IMG/VR virus record: IMGVR_UViG_3300036815_000121
Coordinates: 1-44,730 of that record
DNA: 44,730 nucleotides
DNA from: a virus
Taxonomy: Duplodnaviria > Caudoviricetes
Reading direction: 5' to 3' (one strand)
This document shows positions 127 to 43,811 of the stretch, piece by piece (positions within the stretch are counted from its first letter, which is position 1; the number at the start of each line of letters is the position of its first letter). The position numbers and the translations under genes were made by a program. The notes below the pieces were generated by a model. It saw only the letters and a program-made list of their open reading frames with translations. It was not told the DNA's origin and did not search any database.

Positions 127-320
127 CGGTCGCTTGGCGCTGGCTCTGCGGTCACTCTGCGAGGGGTTCGCGGTCGCTTGGCGCTGGCTCTGCGGTCACT
201 CTGCGAGGGGTTCGCGGTCACTCTGCGAGGGGTTCGCGGTTCACTCTGCAAATTTATTTTGCGGTCGTCTAACTCTCCAGTTTGCGAGGGGTTCGCGGTC
301 ACTTCGCGGTCACTCTGCAA
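127..320. repeat. 22-bp periodic tandem repeat array
   Basis: CGGT recurs at 127,149,171,193,215,237. Unit A CGGTCGCTTGGCGCTGGCTCTG and unit B CGGTCACTCTGCGAGGGGTTCG occur as A-B-A-B-B, with degenerate copies to ~320. Confidence 0.9.
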
Positions 321-330
321 CTTTGTGGGG

Positions 331-359: not shown

Positions 360-415
360 TGGTCTCGTTACATCAAATCCGGGCCATTTGATGGCCCATA
401 ACCGAAAGGATTCCC

Positions 416-1072
416 ATGAACACACTTTTCGAAACGTCTCCCTTGCCAACATCCTCACTCCTGACTGAGCGTTACCGACCGCATACCATCGCGGGTTTTA
501 TCGGTCTCGACAAACCCAAAGCGAAGATGGCGAAACTAGTTGTTTCCCCGTTCGATTCGGCTTGGATTTTCTCCGGGCCTAGTGGGATGGGTAAGACCAC
601 ACTGGCGTTAGCTGTAGCGGAGGAGCTACAAGCGGAGTTGCATCACATTCCCTCGCAACGTTGCACTATTCAAGCGGTCGAGGATATCCGCAGACGTTGT
701 CAGTATGTTCCTATGGCTGGCAAGCGGTTGCATCTAGTTCTGGTAGATGAGGCCGATACCATGAGCAAAGCGGCTCAGGATGCGTTTTTGTCAATCCTCG
801 ATTCGACCAACCGTGCGCCAAACACAATTTTTATCTTCACCTGTAACCAGACCTTGGGCTTAGAGACGCGCTTTTTGTCGCGCTGTTTCGATGTTCCATT
901 CTCTTCCCATGCGGTCTCGAATGAAATCACGGCAATGTTGGAGCGGGTCTGGAATGAAGAAACGAACGGCAATGCTTCCGCTCCTAATTTTCGGAGGATT
1001 GTCAAAGAAGCTAATAATAATGTTCGTACTTCTTTGATGGAGTTGCAAAGCGAGATTATGATGCTTGCCTAG
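416..1072 (+). CDS. Clamp-loader clade AAA+ ATPase (RFC/DnaX/RarA-like), AAA+ module only
   Basis: LTERYRP N-terminal motif, Walker A GPSGMGKTT, Walker B LVLVDEAD, SRC arginine-finger motif (FLSRCF). Confidence 0.85.
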   Translation: MNTLFETSPLPTSSLLTERYRPHTIAGFIGLDKPKAKMAKLVVSPFDSAWIFSGPSGMGKTTLALAVAEELQAELHHIPSQRCTIQAVEDIRRRCQYVPMAGKRLHLVLVDEADTMSKAAQDAFLSILDSTNRAPNTIFIFTCNQTLGLETRFLSRCFDVPFSSHAVSNEITAMLERVWNEETNGNASAPNFRRIVKEANNNVRTSLMELQSEIMMLA

Positions 1073-1145
1073 CATAGTGTAGTTATGATAAAAGTATAGT
1101 TATTAAATCCGGGGTTCGCCCCATAACCTGAGAGGATTACCACCC

Positions 1146-2036
1146 ATGAACATTTACGAGACCATAACCAATCGCATCATTGATTCGCTTAACGCGGGCG
1201 TCATCCCATGGCGGAAACAATGGAAGGTAAGCGCTAAAAACGGGGGAGTTAATGGCATCCCCTACAACCTTACAAACGGCAAGCGATACCGGGGAATCAA
1301 TGAGATTTCCCTGCTTTGCTCTGGCTACACGTCAAGCGGATGGGCAACCTATAAGCAGGCTCAGGCGTTGGGCTATCAGGTTCGCAAAGGTGAGCGGTCG
1401 TCTCCTGTCGTCTGGTGGAGCTTCCCCGATAGAACGAAGGCGGAGGAGAAAGACCGCGCACCATTCGCCAAGTACTATTCCGTTTTCAATGTGGAGCAAA
1501 TGGAAGGTGTACCGGGGGAGTTACCGCTTGGCGATGATGCGGAACCGTTCGACGCGATAGCCTCCGCTGAAACGGTCGCGAATAACTACATGGAATCGGC
1601 CTCGCATCCTACGCTCGGGTTCGGGGGTTCGGACGCCTATTTCCGACCGTCTACTGATCATGTTCAAATGCCTCCTCGTGAATCTTTCCTTTCCCCCGAA
1701 AATTACTATTCGGTTCTGTTCCATGAGTTCGTACACAGTACCGGGATTAAGTCGCGTCTTCATCGGGAGGAGTTGGCCTCAATGATGCGCTTTGGTGACC
1801 GGGAGTATTCGAAGGAGGAGTTAACGGCGGAGTTCGGAGCGGCTTTTCTCTGCGGGGAAGCTGGAATTTCAAACGATTATCTCTTGGACAATTCGACCGC
1901 ATACATTCAGTCTTGGATTGCCAAACTTCAGAGTGACAAAAACTTTGCGATACAGGCGGCGCAACGTGCGCAAAAAGCGGCCGATTTTATCCTCGGGCGG
2001 TCGTGGAAAGCAGCGGAGGAGACGACCGCAGAGTAG
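1146..2036 (+). CDS. ardC: ArdC-family antirestriction / ssDNA-binding protein
   Basis: IPWRKQW, YRGIN, WATYKQA, VRKGE, VFNVEQ (DUF1738-like); zincin-like HEFVH and YSKEELTAEFGAAFLC. Confidence 0.92.
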   Translation: MNIYETITNRIIDSLNAGVIPWRKQWKVSAKNGGVNGIPYNLTNGKRYRGINEISLLCSGYTSSGWATYKQAQALGYQVRKGERSSPVVWWSFPDRTKAEEKDRAPFAKYYSVFNVEQMEGVPGELPLGDDAEPFDAIASAETVANNYMESASHPTLGFGGSDAYFRPSTDHVQMPPRESFLSPENYYSVLFHEFVHSTGIKSRLHREELASMMRFGDREYSKEELTAEFGAAFLCGEAGISNDYLLDNSTAYIQSWIAKLQSDKNFAIQAAQRAQKAADFILGRSWKAAEETTAE

Positions 2037-2040
2037 CAAA

Positions 2041-2096
2041 GGTCGAAACGGGGGAGGAATCCCCCGTTTCAGCGTGATGCGCTGACTGAAGAGACC
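2041..2096 (+). ncRNA. Type II hammerhead ribozyme
   Basis: GGTC-GAAA-[CGGGGGA GGAA TCCCCCG]-TT-[TCAGCG TGATG CGCTGA]-CTGAAGA-GACC; all core nucleotides and three stems present; predicted cleavage after GUU at 2068. Confidence 0.88.
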
Positions 2097-2149
2097 ATTC
2101 AGCAACATTAACCGGGGGTCTCCCCCATAACCGAAAAGGACTAGCCCAC

Positions 2150-2308
2150 ATGGTTCCAAGAACTGAGTTCGGCGCGATTGAAAAGCTCTGGCGAGTGCGC
2201 TGCTATCTCAACGGTATCGCTTCTTATGATCGGTCTCTCACCTTTGAACAGGTGCGAGGAATCGACGCGGCGATTGATATCACCTATGCTGTGCAACGTT
2301 TGTTTTAA
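2150..2308 (+). CDS. Small hypothetical protein, 52 aa (not in ORF track)
   Basis: MVPRTEFGAIEKLWRV...VQRLF follows leader 3 with AAGGA RBS; its TAA stop begins leader 4. Confidence 0.7.
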   Translation: MVPRTEFGAIEKLWRVRCYLNGIASYDRSLTFEQVRGIDAAIDITYAVQRLF

Positions 2309-2347
2309 CCGGGGTCTCCCCCATAACCTTGAAAGGAATAACTACAT

Positions 2348-2464
2348 ATGTATATCGCGAACATTGCGGGTGTAATTTGCATTTTGTTCCTGATGTTTTT
2401 CTTTCCCCTCGCGCATGGGATTGCTCGTCTGATCTGCTTCCTGATAACGAAGGGGGGCCGCTAA
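2348..2464 (+). CDS. Small hydrophobic membrane peptide, 38 aa (not in ORF track)
   Basis: MYIANIAGVICILFLMFFFPLAHGIARLICFLITKGGR follows leader 4; TAATG coupling to the next gene. Confidence 0.65.
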   Translation: MYIANIAGVICILFLMFFFPLAHGIARLICFLITKGGR

Positions 2465-2784
2465 TGCGTAAACCTGATCTGACTTTCTTGGTGACGGTCT
2501 CCCCCGTTTGTCGGGTGATCGGATGCCAAAAAAAACAGGATGAAGAAAATCGCGGTCTCTTCGGTTTCCATTCCTTTACTACGTGTCCAGACTGTCAGGT
2601 GATCCCTGACGGTTGGCAGATGTGGGGGGAGAATGGCCACATGCAAGCGGCTCCTTCCACGCGTGAGTGGATGGCGCATTGGATCAAAGTTAAGGCGCGG
2701 GAACAGTGGAAGACTAAGGCGGGTCTCCTGATGGGCTACCGCTTCCGGGTCGGTTCCACACTTTATTACCGGGGGGGCCGCTAA
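2464..2784 (+). CDS. Hypothetical protein with Cys/His motifs, 106 aa
   Basis: Start reassigned to the TAATG overlap at 2464; CRVIGC and HSFTTCPDC motifs. Confidence 0.65.
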   Translation: MRKPDLTFLVTVSPVCRVIGCQKKQDEENRGLFGFHSFTTCPDCQVIPDGWQMWGENGHMQAAPSTREWMAHWIKVKAREQWKTKAGLLMGYRFRVGSTLYYRGGR

Positions 2785-3014
2785 TGGAAGAATTTGCGCT
2801 GGTCTCTCCTTCGTTCGAGCGGCGTTCGCGCATTGTCTACGTGCGCGGTCGCGCTATCAAGGCGGTCATCTCTACTCATCCCTGTGACGAACGGTGTACT
2901 TCAGCAAAGGGCAACCTTTGCGAGTGCTCGTGTGGTGGGAAGAATCACGGCGCGGATTATCGCGCTGGCGTCGTCCTGGCTCCAGTCGCAGAGGTTGCGC
3001 GGTCGTTGTTCTAA
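2784..3014 (+). CDS. Cys-rich putative Zn-binding phage protein
   Basis: CDERCTSAKGNLCECSCGGKNHG; TAATG-coupled start. Confidence 0.75.
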   Translation: MEEFALVSPSFERRSRIVYVRGRAIKAVISTHPCDERCTSAKGNLCECSCGGKNHGADYRAGVVLAPVAEVARSLF

Positions 3015-3071
3015 CCAATAACCGGGGGCCGCATGGCGCGGCTCCCATAACCTTGAAAGTGAGGAATCAAA

Positions 3072-3395
3072 ATGGAACGTCAACGGTGTGGTTATCATTC
3101 GTGCATCTGTCAAGGGGTGGCTTTCATCTCGCGTGGTGGTGTCAAGCCAGATTCCGATTACTGCGTCAATGGCAAGCGGGTGCGGGTGCGCGATGATGGC
3201 ACGGTCTACGCTTATGATCTGACGGCGGCGGATGTGGCGGAGTTGACTGCTTACTTCCTGCGTGAGTATGCGCGTTACTGCGCTTGGCACGTCGCCAAAA
3301 AGTACACTCAACCGCAAGTCTACGGGGAGATGGTTCTCCAGCCCTTTAACATGGCGTGGCCGTTGCGCGGCGAGTCGCGCACTGGTACAGTGTAG
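3072..3395 (+). CDS. Hypothetical early protein
   Basis: ATG follows leader 5 with GAGGA RBS. Confidence 0.7.
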   Translation: MERQRCGYHSCICQGVAFISRGGVKPDSDYCVNGKRVRVRDDGTVYAYDLTAADVAELTAYFLREYARYCAWHVAKKYTQPQVYGEMVLQPFNMAWPLRGESRTGTV

Positions 3396-3439
3396 TTATT
3401 CCGGGGGCGCGGCTCCCATAACCTGAGAGGGGTTTTCCA

Positions 3440-3640
3440 ATGGTCGAACTTTCCGAAACAGCTAAAGCGGCGCTCATTCTCCACGGTGCACAAAAGACGG
3501 TCTCCGCTCGTCCTGACGGCGCTGTGTGGATTATCGAGGAACGTAAATGGGCGTTGATTGCTTCGCTTCCGGCGGGGCCGGAACACACTTTCATTCTGGC
3601 TCTGATTCACGCTGAGTGTGAGCGTAAATATGGGGCATAA
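3440..3640 (+). CDS. Hypothetical early protein
   Basis: ATG follows leader 6. Confidence 0.7.
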   Translation: MVELSETAKAALILHGAQKTVSARPDGAVWIIEERKWALIASLPAGPEHTFILALIHAECERKYGA

Positions 3641-3694
3641 CTCCAACCGGGGGGCCGCGCTGCGGCTCCCCATAACCTTGAAAGGAATAACTAC

Positions 3695-4072
3695 ATGCAA
3701 AATTTTGTTGGCGTCCGTCCGTTTCGCAACGATATCAGGCCCTATTTCCGTTTCTACTCGGCTCCTCTCGGGGAGGTCGTTGAAGCTGTCGTGCAATTCC
3801 GCAACGACCGCCGTCAAGGGGCTGGCTTTTATCTCTACCTCACTATCAAGACAATCCTGTCTGATGGCGCGGTCCAGTGGATGCCGATGAGTGCGCGGCA
3901 GTCCTATATTCTGCTGTCTCCGGCTGCGCGTTTCGGCTTCCCCAAGCTGCAAGTTTTCGCCATGGCGCTCGACACTAAAATCCCTGAAATTGCAGCGGCG
4001 TGGCGCGATGGCGGGGCGGATGGTATCGAACCCTTTGTTTGTTCGCTGCTCTCTCATTCGCTGGCAATCTAA
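3695..4072 (+). CDS. Hypothetical early protein
   Basis: ATG follows leader 7. Confidence 0.7.
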   Translation: MQNFVGVRPFRNDIRPYFRFYSAPLGEVVEAVVQFRNDRRQGAGFYLYLTIKTILSDGAVQWMPMSARQSYILLSPAARFGFPKLQVFAMALDTKIPEIAAAWRDGGADGIEPFVCSLLSHSLAI

Positions 4073-4130
4073 CTTCAACCGGGGGGCCGTCCTGCGGCTC
4101 CCCCATAACCTTGAAAGGGGAATAACTACA

Positions 4131-7342: not shown

Positions 7343-10300
7343 CTAGGATGTCCAGCAGTCCACGTGGATATCTAGCGTCTCGCCGGGTTGCAGCGGGTTT
7401 TGCAGTTGAATGATTAGGGTGTTGTTGTTGTTCGATGACCACGTTAGGCCGTGCGCGGGGAGGTCTCCGTTGCCGATGACTCCGCAACTGAGGTACTTAA
7501 GGTTACTGCTCTTGTAGTACACGGTGGCAATGCTGGTGGTGGGCGCGGTGGTGCTGGCGGTGAAACTTACGTGTCCATTGATGACGCGGGGGTTGGTAAT
7601 CGATACTCCGGCTACAGGCCGAATCTCGACGCCCGCCACAACAATAACTACAGGTGGGGCGGTGATCGTATAGAGGCCGGAGAAGATGCCGGAGTCGGGC
7701 CGTCCTGCAAGCGTGGCAATCGCCTTAATGGTGGTGGTGGATGGAACAATGATCGGGCTGGTGTAGACGGTGCTTTCTGCGCCACATGCCGGAGTAACGC
7801 TGTTGATGGTGTAACAAATGGTGGCTCCGGTGGTCTGGGTGAACAGGGCTATGGTGGTGGTTGACGGAAAGGTTCCGGGCATGGGTTGCGCGGTCGGGGT
7901 GGCGACGGGGGGTTGGGGAGCATTGATGGTGTAGAGGCCGGAGAAGATGGCGGAGTCGGTGTATCCGGCAAGGGTGGCGATGGCCTTAATGGTGGTGGTA
8001 GTGGCTACGCTGAAAGAGCCGCTGTAGGTGGTGCTTCCAGACCCGCAGTTGTTACCCGTCGTCGTCGGGGTGCTGCCGTTGGTGGTGTAGCAGATTTTCG
8101 CGCCGGAGGTCGTAGTCGAGAGGGCTACGGATGTGGCGGCGGTGAAGGTTCCCGGTGGCGGCGCTCCGGTCGGGGTGGCGGCGGTCGGCGGCGGGGCGCT
8201 GTTGATAGTGTAGAGGCCGGAGAAGATGGCGGAGTCGGTATATCCGGCAAGGGTGGCGATGGCCTTGATGGTGGTGGTGGCGGGTACGCTGAATGACCCG
8301 CTGTAGGTGGTGCTTCCAGACCCGCAGTTGTTGGCGCTCGTCGTCGGGGTGGTGCCGTTGGTGGTGTAGCAGATTTTCGCCCCGGAGGTCGTGGTCGAGA
8401 GTGCTACTGATGTGGCGGCGGTGAAGGTTCCCGGGGGCGGCGCTCCGGTCGGGGTGGCGGCGGTCGGCGGCGGGGGAATATTGATGGTGTAGAGGCCGGA
8501 GAAAATTGCGGAGTCGGTGTATCCGGCAAGCGTGGCAATGGCCTTAATGGTGGTGGTGGCGGGTACGCTGAAGGACCCGCTGTAGGTGGTGCTTCCAGAC
8601 CCGCAGTTGTTCGCTGATGTGGTCGGGGTGCTGCCGTTGGTCGTGTAGCAGATTTTCGCTCCGGTGGTCGTGGTCGAGAGTGCTACTGATGTGGCGGCGG
8701 TGAAGGTTCCCGGTGGCGGCGCTCCGGTCGGGGTGGCGGCGGTCGGCGGCGGCGGGGCGCTGCCATACTCCAATCCGCCCATGCTCGGCGGAACATGGTA
8801 GGCGTTGCCCGCGTTGTCGGTGGTGATGGCGGGCGACAACACGACTCCGGTGTACTTGGCGGGGCTTCCGGTGGTGAGGTTCCAGCCGTAGTTGTCGAAC
8901 ATGGCCTCGCCGGTGTAGGTCGATCCGCCTACAAGCAGCGGGTCTACGCAAAGGTCGCCCGCGCCTCCGGCTCCGCAGTTGCCTCCCTTAAGGTGGAAAT
9001 GGCTGTTGTGGTTCTCGATGATCTGGGAGGGGGCCTGATCGTGGCTTGTCGCTAGCAGGTTGGGATAGGTGCCGCTGTTCCAGTTGGGATTGGAGAAGCC
9101 CAAGAAGATGTTGTTTTGCATGGTGAGGGTCGGCTGCGGCAAGAGACAATGCCCTGCCCCGTCGTTGTCCCAGCATCCCCACAACATAAACTCGTTGTTA
9201 TAGCCAATGATCGTATTGTGCGCAATCAGGCTGGTCCCGCCTCGAAGGTTTTGAAACGATAAGGTGTCGCCCGCGGCGCGGCAAAAGTCGCCTAAGTGAG
9301 TGCGCGGGTCGGGTTCATCTCCTACCTGCTCTGATAAGCGGTGGCAGTTGCCGATGACTAGGTTGGTGGTAAAAACGGTGGTGGTCACGCCTCCCCATTT
9401 GAACTGCTGGCCTGAGTTGCCATAGGCGATGCTGTTGGTGATGGTGACGTTGGCGGGGCCTCCTGAGTTGCCGTCGATATGTCCAACGTCGGGGCCGTCC
9501 TGCGTACAGTAGCGGAAGGTCGTGCGGTCGATCTGGACGGTTAGGGGAGTGTCCGGGGTGCCGATACAATCGGCTACCGTTCCATGCGCGTCATCGAAGG
9601 CTAGGAGCGTGGGAACGTTATGAACGTCGGGAAATTCCTCTATCGCTCCCGCCCATTCAATGATGGAGTTGCGCATCGAGAGGGTGCCGTTTAGGGAGTG
9701 GGTTCCGTTGCCGTCGTCCAGGTCCCATCCGGTCTGTCCGGTGTAGGCGATGCGGACTCGATTAAGATCCACCAGCCCGCCGATTGGTCCTTGTATTCCG
9801 CGATTGGTCACGCGATGAATGTTCACGTCTTGCAGGTAGATATTGGCGCTGGTGTTGTTGGTGACCATGCCCGCTTGCATGTTGTCGTCATAGGGGTAGT
9901 TATTCGCGCAGTAGTGGGCCGCTGGCGGGTCTCCCGGTAGGGGTCCATCGCCCGTTGTTCTACACGACGAGTACCCCGTAACCTCGAAGCATTCAATCAC
10001 AACATCATGCGACCCGCGAACGTCGAACATCTGCGACATATCGTAGCTGCCATGCAGGATTTGCTTTGCTCCGGGTGCGGTACAGGCGGCGTAGTTAGCT
10101 CCTCTAAACGTTGTCGGGTCTGAGGGTGTTCCAGAAGGAATTGCCGGGGGCGTACAGCCGATAGCTCCATTTCCACCAGAGCACCACGGCTCGCCGGAGG
10201 CGGTTGGCTGACTAAAGCCAACCTGACATCCGGGGCCGTCGCTGGCGGCGAGGCAGCTTTCGACGGTGATAATGTCGCTCCCGGCAATGACCCATGCGTG

Positions 10301-10552
10301 ATTGCCATAGGTCTGATCGTCATACAGCCAGCGAAAATCATTAAAGCCGCAGGGCTGATTCGTGCCGCTGCCGGGATAGGCGGCGTCGTGTTTGCCGTCG
10401 CATTGGCTTCTGCTCCCGCCATCGGCGCGGATATACCAGTTGGTGACGACGGCTCGGCCTACACGACAAGAGCGCACTCCATAGATGGCGGCGGCGAGGG
10501 CTGCGATCACCACTAAAATGATGATTAACGACTTGCGCTTGGTATAGGACAT
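7343..10552 (-). CDS. Secreted or anchored beta-helix protein with chitobiase/Fn3-associated repeats
   Basis: N-terminal hydrophobic signal; pectin-lyase-like N/I/G-rich region; four repeats of the type ATPT..PPPGTF...AKICYTTNGSTPT...TTTIKAIA. Confidence 0.85.
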   Translation of the reverse strand: MSYTKRKSLIIILVVIAALAAAIYGVRSCRVGRAVVTNWYIRADGGSRSQCDGKHDAAYPGSGTNQPCGFNDFRWLYDDQTYGNHAWVIAGSDIITVESCLAASDGPGCQVGFSQPTASGEPWCSGGNGAIGCTPPAIPSGTPSDPTTFRGANYAACTAPGAKQILHGSYDMSQMFDVRGSHDVVIECFEVTGYSSCRTTGDGPLPGDPPAAHYCANNYPYDDNMQAGMVTNNTSANIYLQDVNIHRVTNRGIQGPIGGLVDLNRVRIAYTGQTGWDLDDGNGTHSLNGTLSMRNSIIEWAGAIEEFPDVHNVPTLLAFDDAHGTVADCIGTPDTPLTVQIDRTTFRYCTQDGPDVGHIDGNSGGPANVTITNSIAYGNSGQQFKWGGVTTTVFTTNLVIGNCHRLSEQVGDEPDPRTHLGDFCRAAGDTLSFQNLRGGTSLIAHNTIIGYNNEFMLWGCWDNDGAGHCLLPQPTLTMQNNIFLGFSNPNWNSGTYPNLLATSHDQAPSQIIENHNSHFHLKGGNCGAGGAGDLCVDPLLVGGSTYTGEAMFDNYGWNLTTGSPAKYTGVVLSPAITTDNAGNAYHVPPSMGGLEYGSAPPPPTAATPTGAPPPGTFTAATSVALSTTTTGAKICYTTNGSTPTTSANNCGSGSTTYSGSFSVPATTTIKAIATLAGYTDSAIFSGLYTINIPPPPTAATPTGAPPPGTFTAATSVALSTTTSGAKICYTTNGTTPTTSANNCGSGSTTYSGSFSVPATTTIKAIATLAGYTDSAIFSGLYTINSAPPPTAATPTGAPPPGTFTAATSVALSTTTSGAKICYTTNGSTPTTTGNNCGSGSTTYSGSFSVATTTTIKAIATLAGYTDSAIFSGLYTINAPQPPVATPTAQPMPGTFPSTTTIALFTQTTGATICYTINSVTPACGAESTVYTSPIIVPSTTTIKAIATLAGRPDSGIFSGLYTITAPPVVIVVAGVEIRPVAGVSITNPRVINGHVSFTASTTAPTTSIATVYYKSSNLKYLSCGVIGNGDLPAHGLTWSSNNNNTLIIQLQNPLQPGETLDIHVDCWTS
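7923..8759. repeat. Three near-identical 279-bp intragenic repeats
   Basis: Units start at 7923, 8202 and 8481 (93 aa each); a diverged fourth copy lies at ~7660-7920. Confidence 0.9.
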
Positions 10553-42839: not shown

Positions 42840-43811
42840 ATGGGCGCGATAACAGAAATTTCACGGAACCCTTTAAGCGGCGTTGTCAATGAGAGGCGCA
42901 TGGAGGCTTCGCTACAGATGTTCGATATCGAACGCGGCAATGCGAAGCCATCGTTCTATTACCTCAACACCGTGCTCGCGCAAACCAGTCTGCCCCACAA
43001 AGACCCCGGCGATATGCCCTTTTTCAAGTGTGAAAACGGCAACGTCGCTACTACTCTTGTGCGCGGCACTCTCCGTAATCCCTTCAGTGGAAAAATCGAG
43101 TTGCAGGGCTACCCTTATGGCACGAAGCCCCGATTAATGCTCATGTACCTGTGCAGCAGAGCAACCTTGACAGGGAGTAAAGAGATTTACCTGGGCGGCT
43201 CTCTGACGGAATTTCAGCGGCGTATCGGAATCGAGCAATCAACCGGGGGGGTTACCGGGTCGTTGGCTCCGACAAAAAACCAGTTAATGCGTCTCGTATC
43301 CACACATCTCCAGTTGTATTGCGGAGCTATAAACGCCTACTCCATGACCCATGCGGTTCCTCCTATCAAACGCTTCGATTTTTGGCTTCCCGAGGGCCGT
43401 GGAGCCATGAAGTGGGAGGGTATGGTGACGCTCGATGATGAGATTTTCAATTGTCTACAAGATCGTTCCTGCCCCCTACAGGCGTCGGCCATTGTTGCGC
43501 TGCATAACTCCAGTTTGGCGCTCGATATTTATACGTGGCTGGCCTTTCGGCTCTGGCGGATCAAGGTTAGTCCAATGAGGCCGCTGCCTTGGGACTCGCT
43601 TCATGCTCAGTTCGGATCGGGATATAGCAGGATTCGAGACTTTCGGAAGGCTTTCAAGGAATCTCTTCAGTTGGTGAAATCCGTCTACCCGGAAGCCTGT
43701 TTCAGTTTCGACCACAACGACGAGCTAGTTTTGCGGCGTTCTCAACCTCCTGTGGCGAAGTCCACTATCGAGCGGGAGGTAAAAACTCTCCAACTTTCGC
43801 TAAACTATTGA
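42840..43811 (+). CDS. repA: Plasmid replication initiator RepA (RepA_C-like family)
   Basis: LAQTSLPH, GYPYGTKPRL, SSLALDIYTWLAFRL, LHAQFGSGY, VYPEA. Confidence 0.88.
   Translation: MGAITEISRNPLSGVVNERRMEASLQMFDIERGNAKPSFYYLNTVLAQTSLPHKDPGDMPFFKCENGNVATTLVRGTLRNPFSGKIELQGYPYGTKPRLMLMYLCSRATLTGSKEIYLGGSLTEFQRRIGIEQSTGGVTGSLAPTKNQLMRLVSTHLQLYCGAINAYSMTHAVPPIKRFDFWLPEGRGAMKWEGMVTLDDEIFNCLQDRSCPLQASAIVALHNSSLALDIYTWLAFRLWRIKVSPMRPLPWDSLHAQFGSGYSRIRDFRKAFKESLQLVKSVYPEACFSFDHNDELVLRRSQPPVAKSTIEREVKTLQLSLNY

What the first reader, a model, noticed from the sequence alone, without database searches (positions are those of the whole stretch)
2041..2110. Complete type II hammerhead ribozyme 4 nt after the ardC stop
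Seen: stem II GGTC/GACC with the canonical G10.1-C11.1 pair, GAAA, an 8-bp stem III, a GUU triplet (2066-2068), a 6-bp stem I and CUGAAGA. Loop I UGAUG could pair with downstream CAUUA (2106-2110) as a pseudoknot. Known: hammerheads occur in phage intergenic regions but their roles are mostly unknown. Inference: self-cleavage splits the early mRNA between ardC and cassette 3, leaving ardC with a 3' hairpin and the downstream RNA with a 5'-OH end just ahead of leader 3.
Basis: partly seen in the sequence, partly recalled or inferred. Interest (0 to 1): 0.82.

Follow-up and report, generated by a model that had tools for sequence, protein, structure and literature searches.

The report
Phage hammerhead in swappable ribozyme slot
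A soil phage has a self-cutting hammerhead RNA motif 4 bases after its anti-restriction gene ardC, at the spot where its closest relatives have an unrelated twister self-cutting motif; the phage likely needs a cut in its early message there, and this copy is predicted to cut only partly because a short tail and its cut-site base can pair with its own active core.

Summary
Real type II hammerhead motif at 2040-2096 (cut predicted 2068/2069). Rfam misses it, but it scores 57 bits with a model built without it and belongs to a large compact phage family. The proposed pseudoknot is not supported; invariant A2040 and U2075 point to the viroid-type reverse-Hoogsteen contact instead. In the AAA+ArdC phage clade 5 of 16 distinct loci have a ribozyme right after ardC: this hammerhead, three twister P5, one twister P1; the two closest relatives have twisters, and downstream genes differ. 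So a cut, not a sequence, is likely what is kept. About a tenth of the family has a 3' tail complementary to the core that covaries with N7 (36 of 37); the window has it (2098-2102), and its rare GUU site adds a misfold, so cleavage is predicted to be partial. No activity was tested. Ribozymes between phage genes, near anti-restriction genes too, are published (Perreault 2011), and this scan noted such operons and one slot swap on other DNA.

The parts
1146..2036 (+). ardC-like gene (ArdcN + MPTase-PolyVal), second early gene; its stop abuts the ribozyme
2040..2040 (+). A immediately 5' of stem II; likely partner of U1.7 in a reverse-Hoogsteen tertiary pair
   Evidence: A in 145 of 146 and 122 of 124 family hits although not in the search patterns; pair type from PMC2632901 passages
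2041..2044 (+). stem II, 5' strand (pairs with 2093-2096)
   Evidence: stem II covaries freely in the family
2045..2048 (+). core G12 A13 A14 A15.1
2049..2067 (+). stem III hairpin with U16.1 at 2067; would cap the 3' end of the ardC fragment
   Evidence: pair probability 0.99-1.00
2068..2069 (+). predicted scissile bond after U17 (GUU site, 2 of 369 family members; allows a misfold with 2045-2047)
   Evidence: untested
2069..2085 (+). stem I hairpin, 6 bp + loop 2075-2079 with U1.7 at 2075; would be the 5' end of the downstream fragment
   Evidence: U1.7 in 144 of 144; fold of the 3' product
2086..2092 (+). core C3 U4 G5 A6 N7 G8 A9 (N7 = A)
2093..2096 (+). stem II, 3' strand with G10.1
2098..2102 (+). 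anti-core tail complementary to 2086-2090; competes with stem II
2110..2141 (+). third copy of the repeated early-gene leader (hairpin, CCCATAACC, Shine-Dalgarno)
   Evidence: (8 copies against 0.37 expected)
2150..2308 (+). 52-aa ORF of unknown function downstream of the cut
   Evidence: no family; homologue in L002

Best explanation
It is a compact type II hammerhead motif directly after the ardC stop codon that likely cuts a fraction of the phage's early mRNA between 2068 and 2069, which would release the ardC message with a hairpin at its 3' end and the downstream message with a 5'-OH hairpin end. Shown: the motif, its family, its position, and twister ribozymes at the same position in relatives. 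Inferred: stems I and II are docked by an A2040-U2075 reverse-Hoogsteen pair, not a pseudoknot; the products part easily because only the 4-bp stem II joins them; the tail 2098-2102 then closes on the core, which would block re-ligation and, before the cut, would lower the cleaved fraction; the GUU site lowers it further. The selected function is inferred to be a host-independent cut that uncouples the stability and translation of the anti-defence gene from the variable genes behind it.
For: Motif and family. Same slot, other class: Twister-P5 above Rfam's cut-off 1-2 nt after the ardC stop in L001/L130 (ArdC 89%), L139 (85%), L003/L138/L140 (69%); twister-P1 in L132 (42 bits, E 1.8e-8 on 151 nt, below cut-off 67.2). 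In G001, G003, G004 and G010 (41-44 kb) the single Twister-P5 match is at this slot; the window has one hammerhead and no twister. The ArdC tree nests the window with two twister-bearing loci (100/99) inside a clade whose other branch also has a twister (98/96), so replacement of a twister is the simplest history. In L507 a DUF932 gene takes ardC's place and a twister overlaps its stop. Family hammerheads overlap the ardC stop in distant L147 and L458. Family-wide, 176 of 250 start within 5 nt of an upstream ORF stop (reverse-strand control 11 of 241) and a start with a Shine-Dalgarno-like motif follows at a median 24.5 nt. Type P5 twister also leaves a hairpin on the upstream product. Precedent: hammerheads flanking ardA cleave in vitro and in E. 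coli (PMC3088659); a synthetic ribozyme plus hairpin raises downstream expression (PMC6206723, passages).
Against: No cleavage, transcript end or phenotype was observed. 11 of 16 distinct clade loci have no detected ribozyme after ardC, and only 2 of 81 more distant ardC loci do, so it is dispensable. The window's copy is the family's worst folder in a 2D model: A14 paired 0.92 against median 0.09, stem I with tail 0.03 against median 1.00, n = 257; GUU occurs in 2 of 369. The swap could reflect recombination that carries any ardC-linked module between ardC and the repeated leader, without selection on this copy. If each leader has its own promoter the downstream 5' end would not need the cut; the promoter scan was uninformative (3 sites against 3.7 in shuffles).
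Confidence: 0.6

Rival explanations
1. Translation-gated switch: a ribosome terminating at the ardC stop would cover A2040 and the 5' strand of stem II, letting the tail lock the core, so cleavage would occur mainly when ardC is not being translated.
For: Family members sit closer to the upstream stop than uniform placement in their gaps predicts (158 of 202 within 5 nt against 92.7); four P5 twisters start 2 nt or less from the stop; the tail covaries with N7 (36 of 37 pair; 2x2 p 4.5e-8, not corrected for kinship; 7 stem II types) and active and tail-locked folds are within 0.4 kcal/mol in 2D. Ribosome footprint past the stop codon is recalled, from no call.
Against: About nine in ten members lack the tail (27 of 254 with a Watson-Crick match; 3 of 108 in genome hits); tight packing is normal in phages and the invariant A plus G favours overlap with stop codons (60 of 250 overlap by one base); my uniform-placement null is crude; the tail is equally explained as a post-cleavage lock.
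Confidence: 0.15
2. Decaying or neutral passenger: this copy hardly cleaves in vivo and persists as a hairpin at the end of ardC, moved around by recombination between cassettes.
For: Rare GUU site and strongest predicted misfold of 257; ribozyme absent in 11 of 16 clade loci.
Against: All core bases, all three stems, A2040 and U2075 are intact; the X2 contig (depth 8.7) differs at five positions of the element (2039, 2058, 2078, 2090, 2098), none in a stem or invariant base, and the 2090 and 2098 changes together keep the tail paired; an X4 contig reads GUC at the site; 2D energies omit tertiary contacts; GUU is a cleavable NUH site (PMC8495972, PMC3138052, passages).
Confidence: 0.15
3. Shut-off device: the cut mainly marks the ardC message or the downstream message for decay, making the anti-defence burst brief.
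For: The ribozyme tracks the end of the second early gene (ardC or DUF932) and not the downstream gene; engineered 3'-UTR twisters affect expression (PMC6765202, passage).
Against: Both predicted products end in stable hairpins, which usually protect RNA (own knowledge; PMC6206723 discussion).
Confidence: 0.07
4. Intrinsic terminator or chance hairpins, not a ribozyme.
For: G+C-rich hairpin followed by three U; no Rfam hammerhead hit.
Against: No plus-strand terminator called there; full core, family model score 57 bits; Rfam misses the whole family.
Confidence: 0.03

Closest known systems
Type II hammerhead ribozymes of bacteria and prophages (Perreault et al. 2011, PMC3088659; abstract and parts 1-4 of 7 of the text read; Rfam RF02276)
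   Same: Open stem II topology, full core, phage intergenic location, neighbourhood of an anti-restriction gene (ardA there), proposed processing of polycistronic RNA.
   Different: The consensus there has a loop I / 3'-tail pseudoknot; this family shows no such enrichment, has a fixed 4-bp stem II, 6-bp stem I, invariant U1.7 and A, and is not detected by RF02276. The paper does say many hammerheads lack the pseudoknot, and its type II alignment could not be read, so overlap with its dataset is open.
Viroid/satellite type III hammerheads with the loop 1 U / loop 2 A reverse-Hoogsteen pair (Dufour et al. 2009, PMC2632901, passages; PMC6155905, passages)
   Same: 5' U of loop 1 and the A just before stem II are invariant at the matching positions.
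   Different: Here loop 2 is open (type II), where PMC6155905's figure legend says type II contacts are usually Watson-Crick; the pair is inferred from conservation only.
Co-location of hammerhead and twister ribozymes near the same gene classes (Roth 2014 and Weinberg 2015 as summarised in PMC10085705 and PMC6765202, passages; originals not read)
   Same: Different ribozyme classes occupy similar places near phage genes; function unknown.
   Different: Here the exchange is seen at one orthologous junction between phages with 85-89% identical ArdC, with a tree that suggests its direction.
RiboJ synthetic insulator (PMC6206723, passages)
   Same: Self-cleavage leaves a defined hairpin-bearing 5' end ahead of a ribosome-binding site.
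   Different: Natural, placed between genes, also makes the upstream 3' end, and carries a tail that opposes its own core.
Twister type P5 (RF02684) and P1 (RF03160)
   Same: Occupy the same slot in relatives; same cleavage chemistry.
   Different: Unrelated fold; absent from the window.

Membership tests
Hammerhead ribozyme class | Core C3 U4 G5 A6 N7 G8 A9, G12 A13 A14, A15.1-U16.1, H17 | tested here: met
Hammerhead ribozyme class | Three helices around the core, supported by covariation | tested here: met
   137 of 146 primary-sequence hits form stems I and III; stem II of 4 bp or more in 117 of 124 with many sequences; double changes at 10 of 16 pairs in a set I had pre-selected for pairing
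Hammerhead ribozyme class | Site-specific self-cleavage giving 2',3'-cyclic phosphate and 5'-OH | not testable with these tools
   needs in vitro or in vivo assay
Type II hammerhead | Stems I and III closed by loops, stem II open | tested here: met
Pseudoknotted type II consensus (Perreault 2011 / RF02276) | Loop I pairs with the 3' tail of stem II | tested here: not met
   no enrichment, 11 of 143 against 10.8; broken in related contigs
Pseudoknotted type II consensus (Perreault 2011 / RF02276) | Score above gathering threshold (37 bits) | tested here: not met
   no match at E<=10
Loop-loop (U1.7-A) tertiary-stabilised hammerheads | Invariant 5' U of loop 1 and A 5' of stem II at 6-bp/4-bp geometry | tested here: met
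   144 of 144 and 145 of 146; 122 of 124 against 13 of 33 unstructured hits
Loop-loop (U1.7-A) tertiary-stabilised hammerheads | Physical reverse-Hoogsteen pair needed for fast cleavage | not testable with these tools
   needs kinetics or structure
Twister ribozyme | Match to RF02684 / RF03160 | tested here: not met
   window: none; met in relatives
Intrinsic terminator | Hairpin followed by a U-rich tract | tested here: not met

The most novel reading that the evidence does not exclude
A large phage family of stop-codon-abutting type II hammerheads includes a subfamily with a natural, covarying anti-core tail that works as a translation-gated self-cleavage switch: the ribosome finishing ardC melts stem II, the tail locks the core, and the early message is cut only when the anti-defence gene is not being translated.
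Probability: 0.15. Interest if true: 0.85.

Novelty: new variant of a known kind. Interest (0 to 1): 0.5.

Why it matters
The role of self-cleaving ribozymes in phages is called open in the reviews read (PMC6765202, PMC6155905, PMC10085705; passages). A junction where near-identical phages carry a hammerhead, a twister or nothing is a natural experiment: three alleles can be compared in one reporter to ask what the cut does. The family is large (about 3600 stored viral stretches match the loose pattern, 124 of 157 sampled hits structured), invisible to Rfam, about 52-60 nt long, and present in cultured Paraburkholderia genomes. A covarying tail that pairs with the catalytic core would be a natural counterpart of engineered inhibitory strands. 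The layout itself is ordinary.

Tried and rejected
Rfam hammerhead models: nothing in the window or in 17 family loci. Pseudoknot: rejected. BLASTN of the element against cultured phages: only chance-level pieces, 0 of 19 records covering 80%. A second ribozyme in the window that could excise or circularise ardC: none. R1 hits in nine relatives' records: none. Promoter scan: at chance level. Sequencing runs: no RNA holder listed; X1 may be the source of the window; X3 gave nothing on the short stretch. Contigs in X1 (depth 4.0) and X3 (depth 6.6) leave ardC and go on like the start of the L001 twister, but only 30 letters are shown: a lead only. L496 (hammerhead-like after the AAA gene, 25 bits, altered core) and L475 (apparent type III form before ardC, read by eye) were not counted. 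L175/L178/L184/L187 hairpins after ardC looked at by eye, no model hit. Whether the family is in Perreault's Dataset S1: file cut before the type II pages, motif searches empty and uninformative. No paper on an anti-core tail or ribosome-gated natural hammerhead turned up in searches (listings), nor in scan notes; subscription papers (Roth 2014, Weinberg 2015, Jimenez 2011, O'Rourke 2015) were not available or not read. No rate for GUU against GUC was found. Host not determined.

Full report
Setting. The window is a whole 44.7-kb virus record with terminase, portal, capsid and a plasmid-type RepA. Its first 4.8 kb is a plus-strand run of small genes, eight of them headed by a repeated leader (8 copies against 0.37 expected). 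The first gene is a clamp-loader-like AAA protein, the second an ArdC-like protein. Runs holding the DNA are soil metagenomes (X1 may be the source).

Observation. A general type II descriptor finds this one site on both strands; 1 of 200 shuffles has any. Rfam finds no hammerhead. That is a gap in Rfam: a primary-sequence pattern gave 126 viral loci from 14 of 64 parts of the collection, 146 distinct hits, 137 of which form stems I and III though neither was asked for; Rfam at gathering score saw none in the 17 such loci I gave it. A looser pattern gave 157 distinct hits, 124 structured (33 dropped as unstructured), 117 of them with a stem II of 4 bp or more in 27 sequence types. A model from 45 of the 146 hits (those of equal length, window left out) scores the window at 57.2 bits, E 2.4e-14 (rough), as the only real hit. 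In genome contigs 106 of 108 distinct hits are structured; many come from Gastranaerophilales, some from Acidobacteriota and Paraburkholderia.

Tertiary contact. The pseudoknot is not supported: 11 of 143 members have 5 complementary bases between loop I and 15 nt of tail, 10.8 expected, and related contigs break it. Two bases outside the patterns are invariant: the A just 5' of stem II (145 of 146; 122 of 124 against 13 of 33 unstructured hits) and U1.7 (144 of 144). These match the loop 2 A and loop 1 U that form a reverse-Hoogsteen pair in Schistosoma, sTRSV and CChMVd hammerheads (PMC2632901, passages; PMC9217987, passages). In the window they are A2040 and U2075. The pair is inferred.

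The slot. ArdC relatives came from three viral scans and one metagenome scan, plus a scan with the AAA protein. Of 17 loci with the AAA gene and ArdC at 48% identity or more, plus the window, 16 are distinct after merging two near-identical pairs; 5 of 16 have a ribozyme after the ardC stop: the window's hammerhead; Twister-P5 above cut-off in L130 (89%), L139 (85%) and L138/L140 (69%), 1-2 nt after the stop; twister-P1 in L132, 31 nt after the stop and below cut-off. 11 of 16 have none detected. In the four whole records with a Twister-P5 match it is single and at this junction; ten other records have none. In one of the four (L507) a DUF932 gene stands where ardC does. Among 81 more distant ardC loci, 2 (L147, L458) have a family hammerhead overlapping the stop; for 6 my script missed the stop, and Rfam was run on only 12. 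The ArdC tree (27 rows) groups the window with L130 and L139 (100/99), sister to L138/L140 and ribozyme-less L141 (98/96); the simplest history is a twister replaced by a hammerhead, though recombination at ardC blurs this. The eight downstream proteins show no cross-similarity. Inference: what is kept is a cut at the end of the second early gene.

Family architecture. 176 of 250 members begin within 5 nt of an upstream ORF's stop (reverse-strand control 11 of 241); where both neighbours were found, 158 of 202 against 92.7 for uniform placement; medians 2 nt up and 24.5 nt down. I ran this control because an earlier scan note reported that a like claim for twisters fell on re-test. The null is crude and the invariant A favours overlap with stops (60 of 250).

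Anti-core tail. Of 112 distinct matches to a core-plus-tail pattern, 16 were hammerheads, and in 16 of 16 the base before TCAG pairs with N7. Pooling all scans (369 members, enriched by that search), 37 have the tail and 36 pair: U-A 21, C-G 13, U-G 2; p 4.5e-8 without correction for kinship; seven stem II types; without the tail G follows in only 20 of 100 N7=C members. In the unenriched set 27 of 254 have a Watson-Crick match, against 13.9 with swapped tails and 1.1 with shuffled letters; in genome hits only 3 of 108. The window has N7=A and one more U in the tail; the X2 contig (depth 8.7) and one X4 contig (depth 3.3) have N7=U and lack that U, so both states pair. In 2D the active fold (-28.1) and tail-locked fold (-27.7 kcal/mol) are level, and the 3' product folds as stem I, tail hairpin, leader hairpin.

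Against full activity. GUU is found in 2 of 369 members. Here it lets 2068-2070 pair with 2045-2047: A14 is paired with probability 0.92 against a family median of 0.09, the highest of 257, and with the tail stem I falls to 0.03. The model has no tertiary energies. X2 keeps GUU; an X4 contig reads GUC. GUU is a cleavable NUH site (PMC8495972, PMC3138052, passages); no rate comparison was found.

Mechanism. Shown: motif, family, position, class exchange, covariation. Inferred: transcription through the junction, partial cleavage at 2068/2069, hairpin-ended products, irreversibility through the tail, and uncoupling of ardC from the variable genes behind it (0.6). Rivals: translation-gated switch (0.15), decaying passenger (0.15), shut-off device (0.07), terminator (0.03). 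The parallel with RNase III cutting of the T7 early transcript is recalled, from no call.

Prior art. Perreault 2011 (PMC3088659; abstract, parts 1-4 of 7, supplement searches) reported type II hammerheads, prophage clusters, activity around ardA and the processing idea. Co-location of hammerheads and twisters near the same genes is stated in PMC10085705 (passages); function is called open in PMC6765202 and PMC6155905 (passages). PMC13481778 (passages) lists 561 type II hits from deep-sea RNA viromes, not compared. Perreault's type II alignment was cut from the held file, and bioRxiv supplements are closed, so prior listing of this family cannot be excluded. This scan has noted ribozyme-punctuated early operons, hammerheads near ardC and a hammerhead/pistol slot on other DNA.

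Verdict. A real ribozyme motif in a known kind of place. New as far as searched: a large Rfam-invisible type II family with a U-A contact, a covarying anti-core tail, and a close-range hammerhead/twister exchange that makes the function testable. New variant of a known kind; interest 0.5.

Noticed in passing
window 379-4121: Eight copies of a leader (hairpin, CCCATAACC, Shine-Dalgarno) head the early genes; L001 keeps it, L002 and L003 use analogous hairpin leaders of other sequence. No Rfam match.
   Followed up: partly
window 1075-1108 and 3390-3400; L001 1110-1131, 1338-1351; L003 945-954: A GTRTAGTTAT-like motif precedes only some leader copies (before ardC and before ORF 3440) and is kept in relatives; possible promoter or operator.
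   Followed up: no
window 127-328: 22-nt-spaced direct repeats at the left end, with similar repeats in L001 and L002; possible iterons for the RepA at 42840-43811, suggesting a phage-plasmid.
   Followed up: no
L147 1791-1855: Family hammerhead with the U3-A8 core variant, overlapping the ardC stop.
   Followed up: partly
L475 653-720: Apparent type III permutation with the same 6-bp stem I, U1.7 and 4-bp stem II, just upstream of ardC (read by eye).
   Followed up: no
L496 946-1013: Hammerhead-like element with an altered GAAA strand at the stop of the AAA gene in a relative lacking ardC.
   Followed up: no
L507 929-1889: DUF932 gene replaces ardC as second early gene, with a P5 twister overlapping its stop.
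   Followed up: yes
L023/L024, L072/L073, L077, L374-L376, L320-L323: Phages with four to nine family hammerheads in tandem between small genes.
   Followed up: no
L578-L654 (genome contigs): A 66-nt subfamily common in Gastranaerophilales bins has a conserved long stem III with a recurring loop sequence.
   Followed up: no
window 7343-10552 (-): 1069-aa protein with repeated proline/threonine-rich units, likely a virion surface protein.
   Followed up: no
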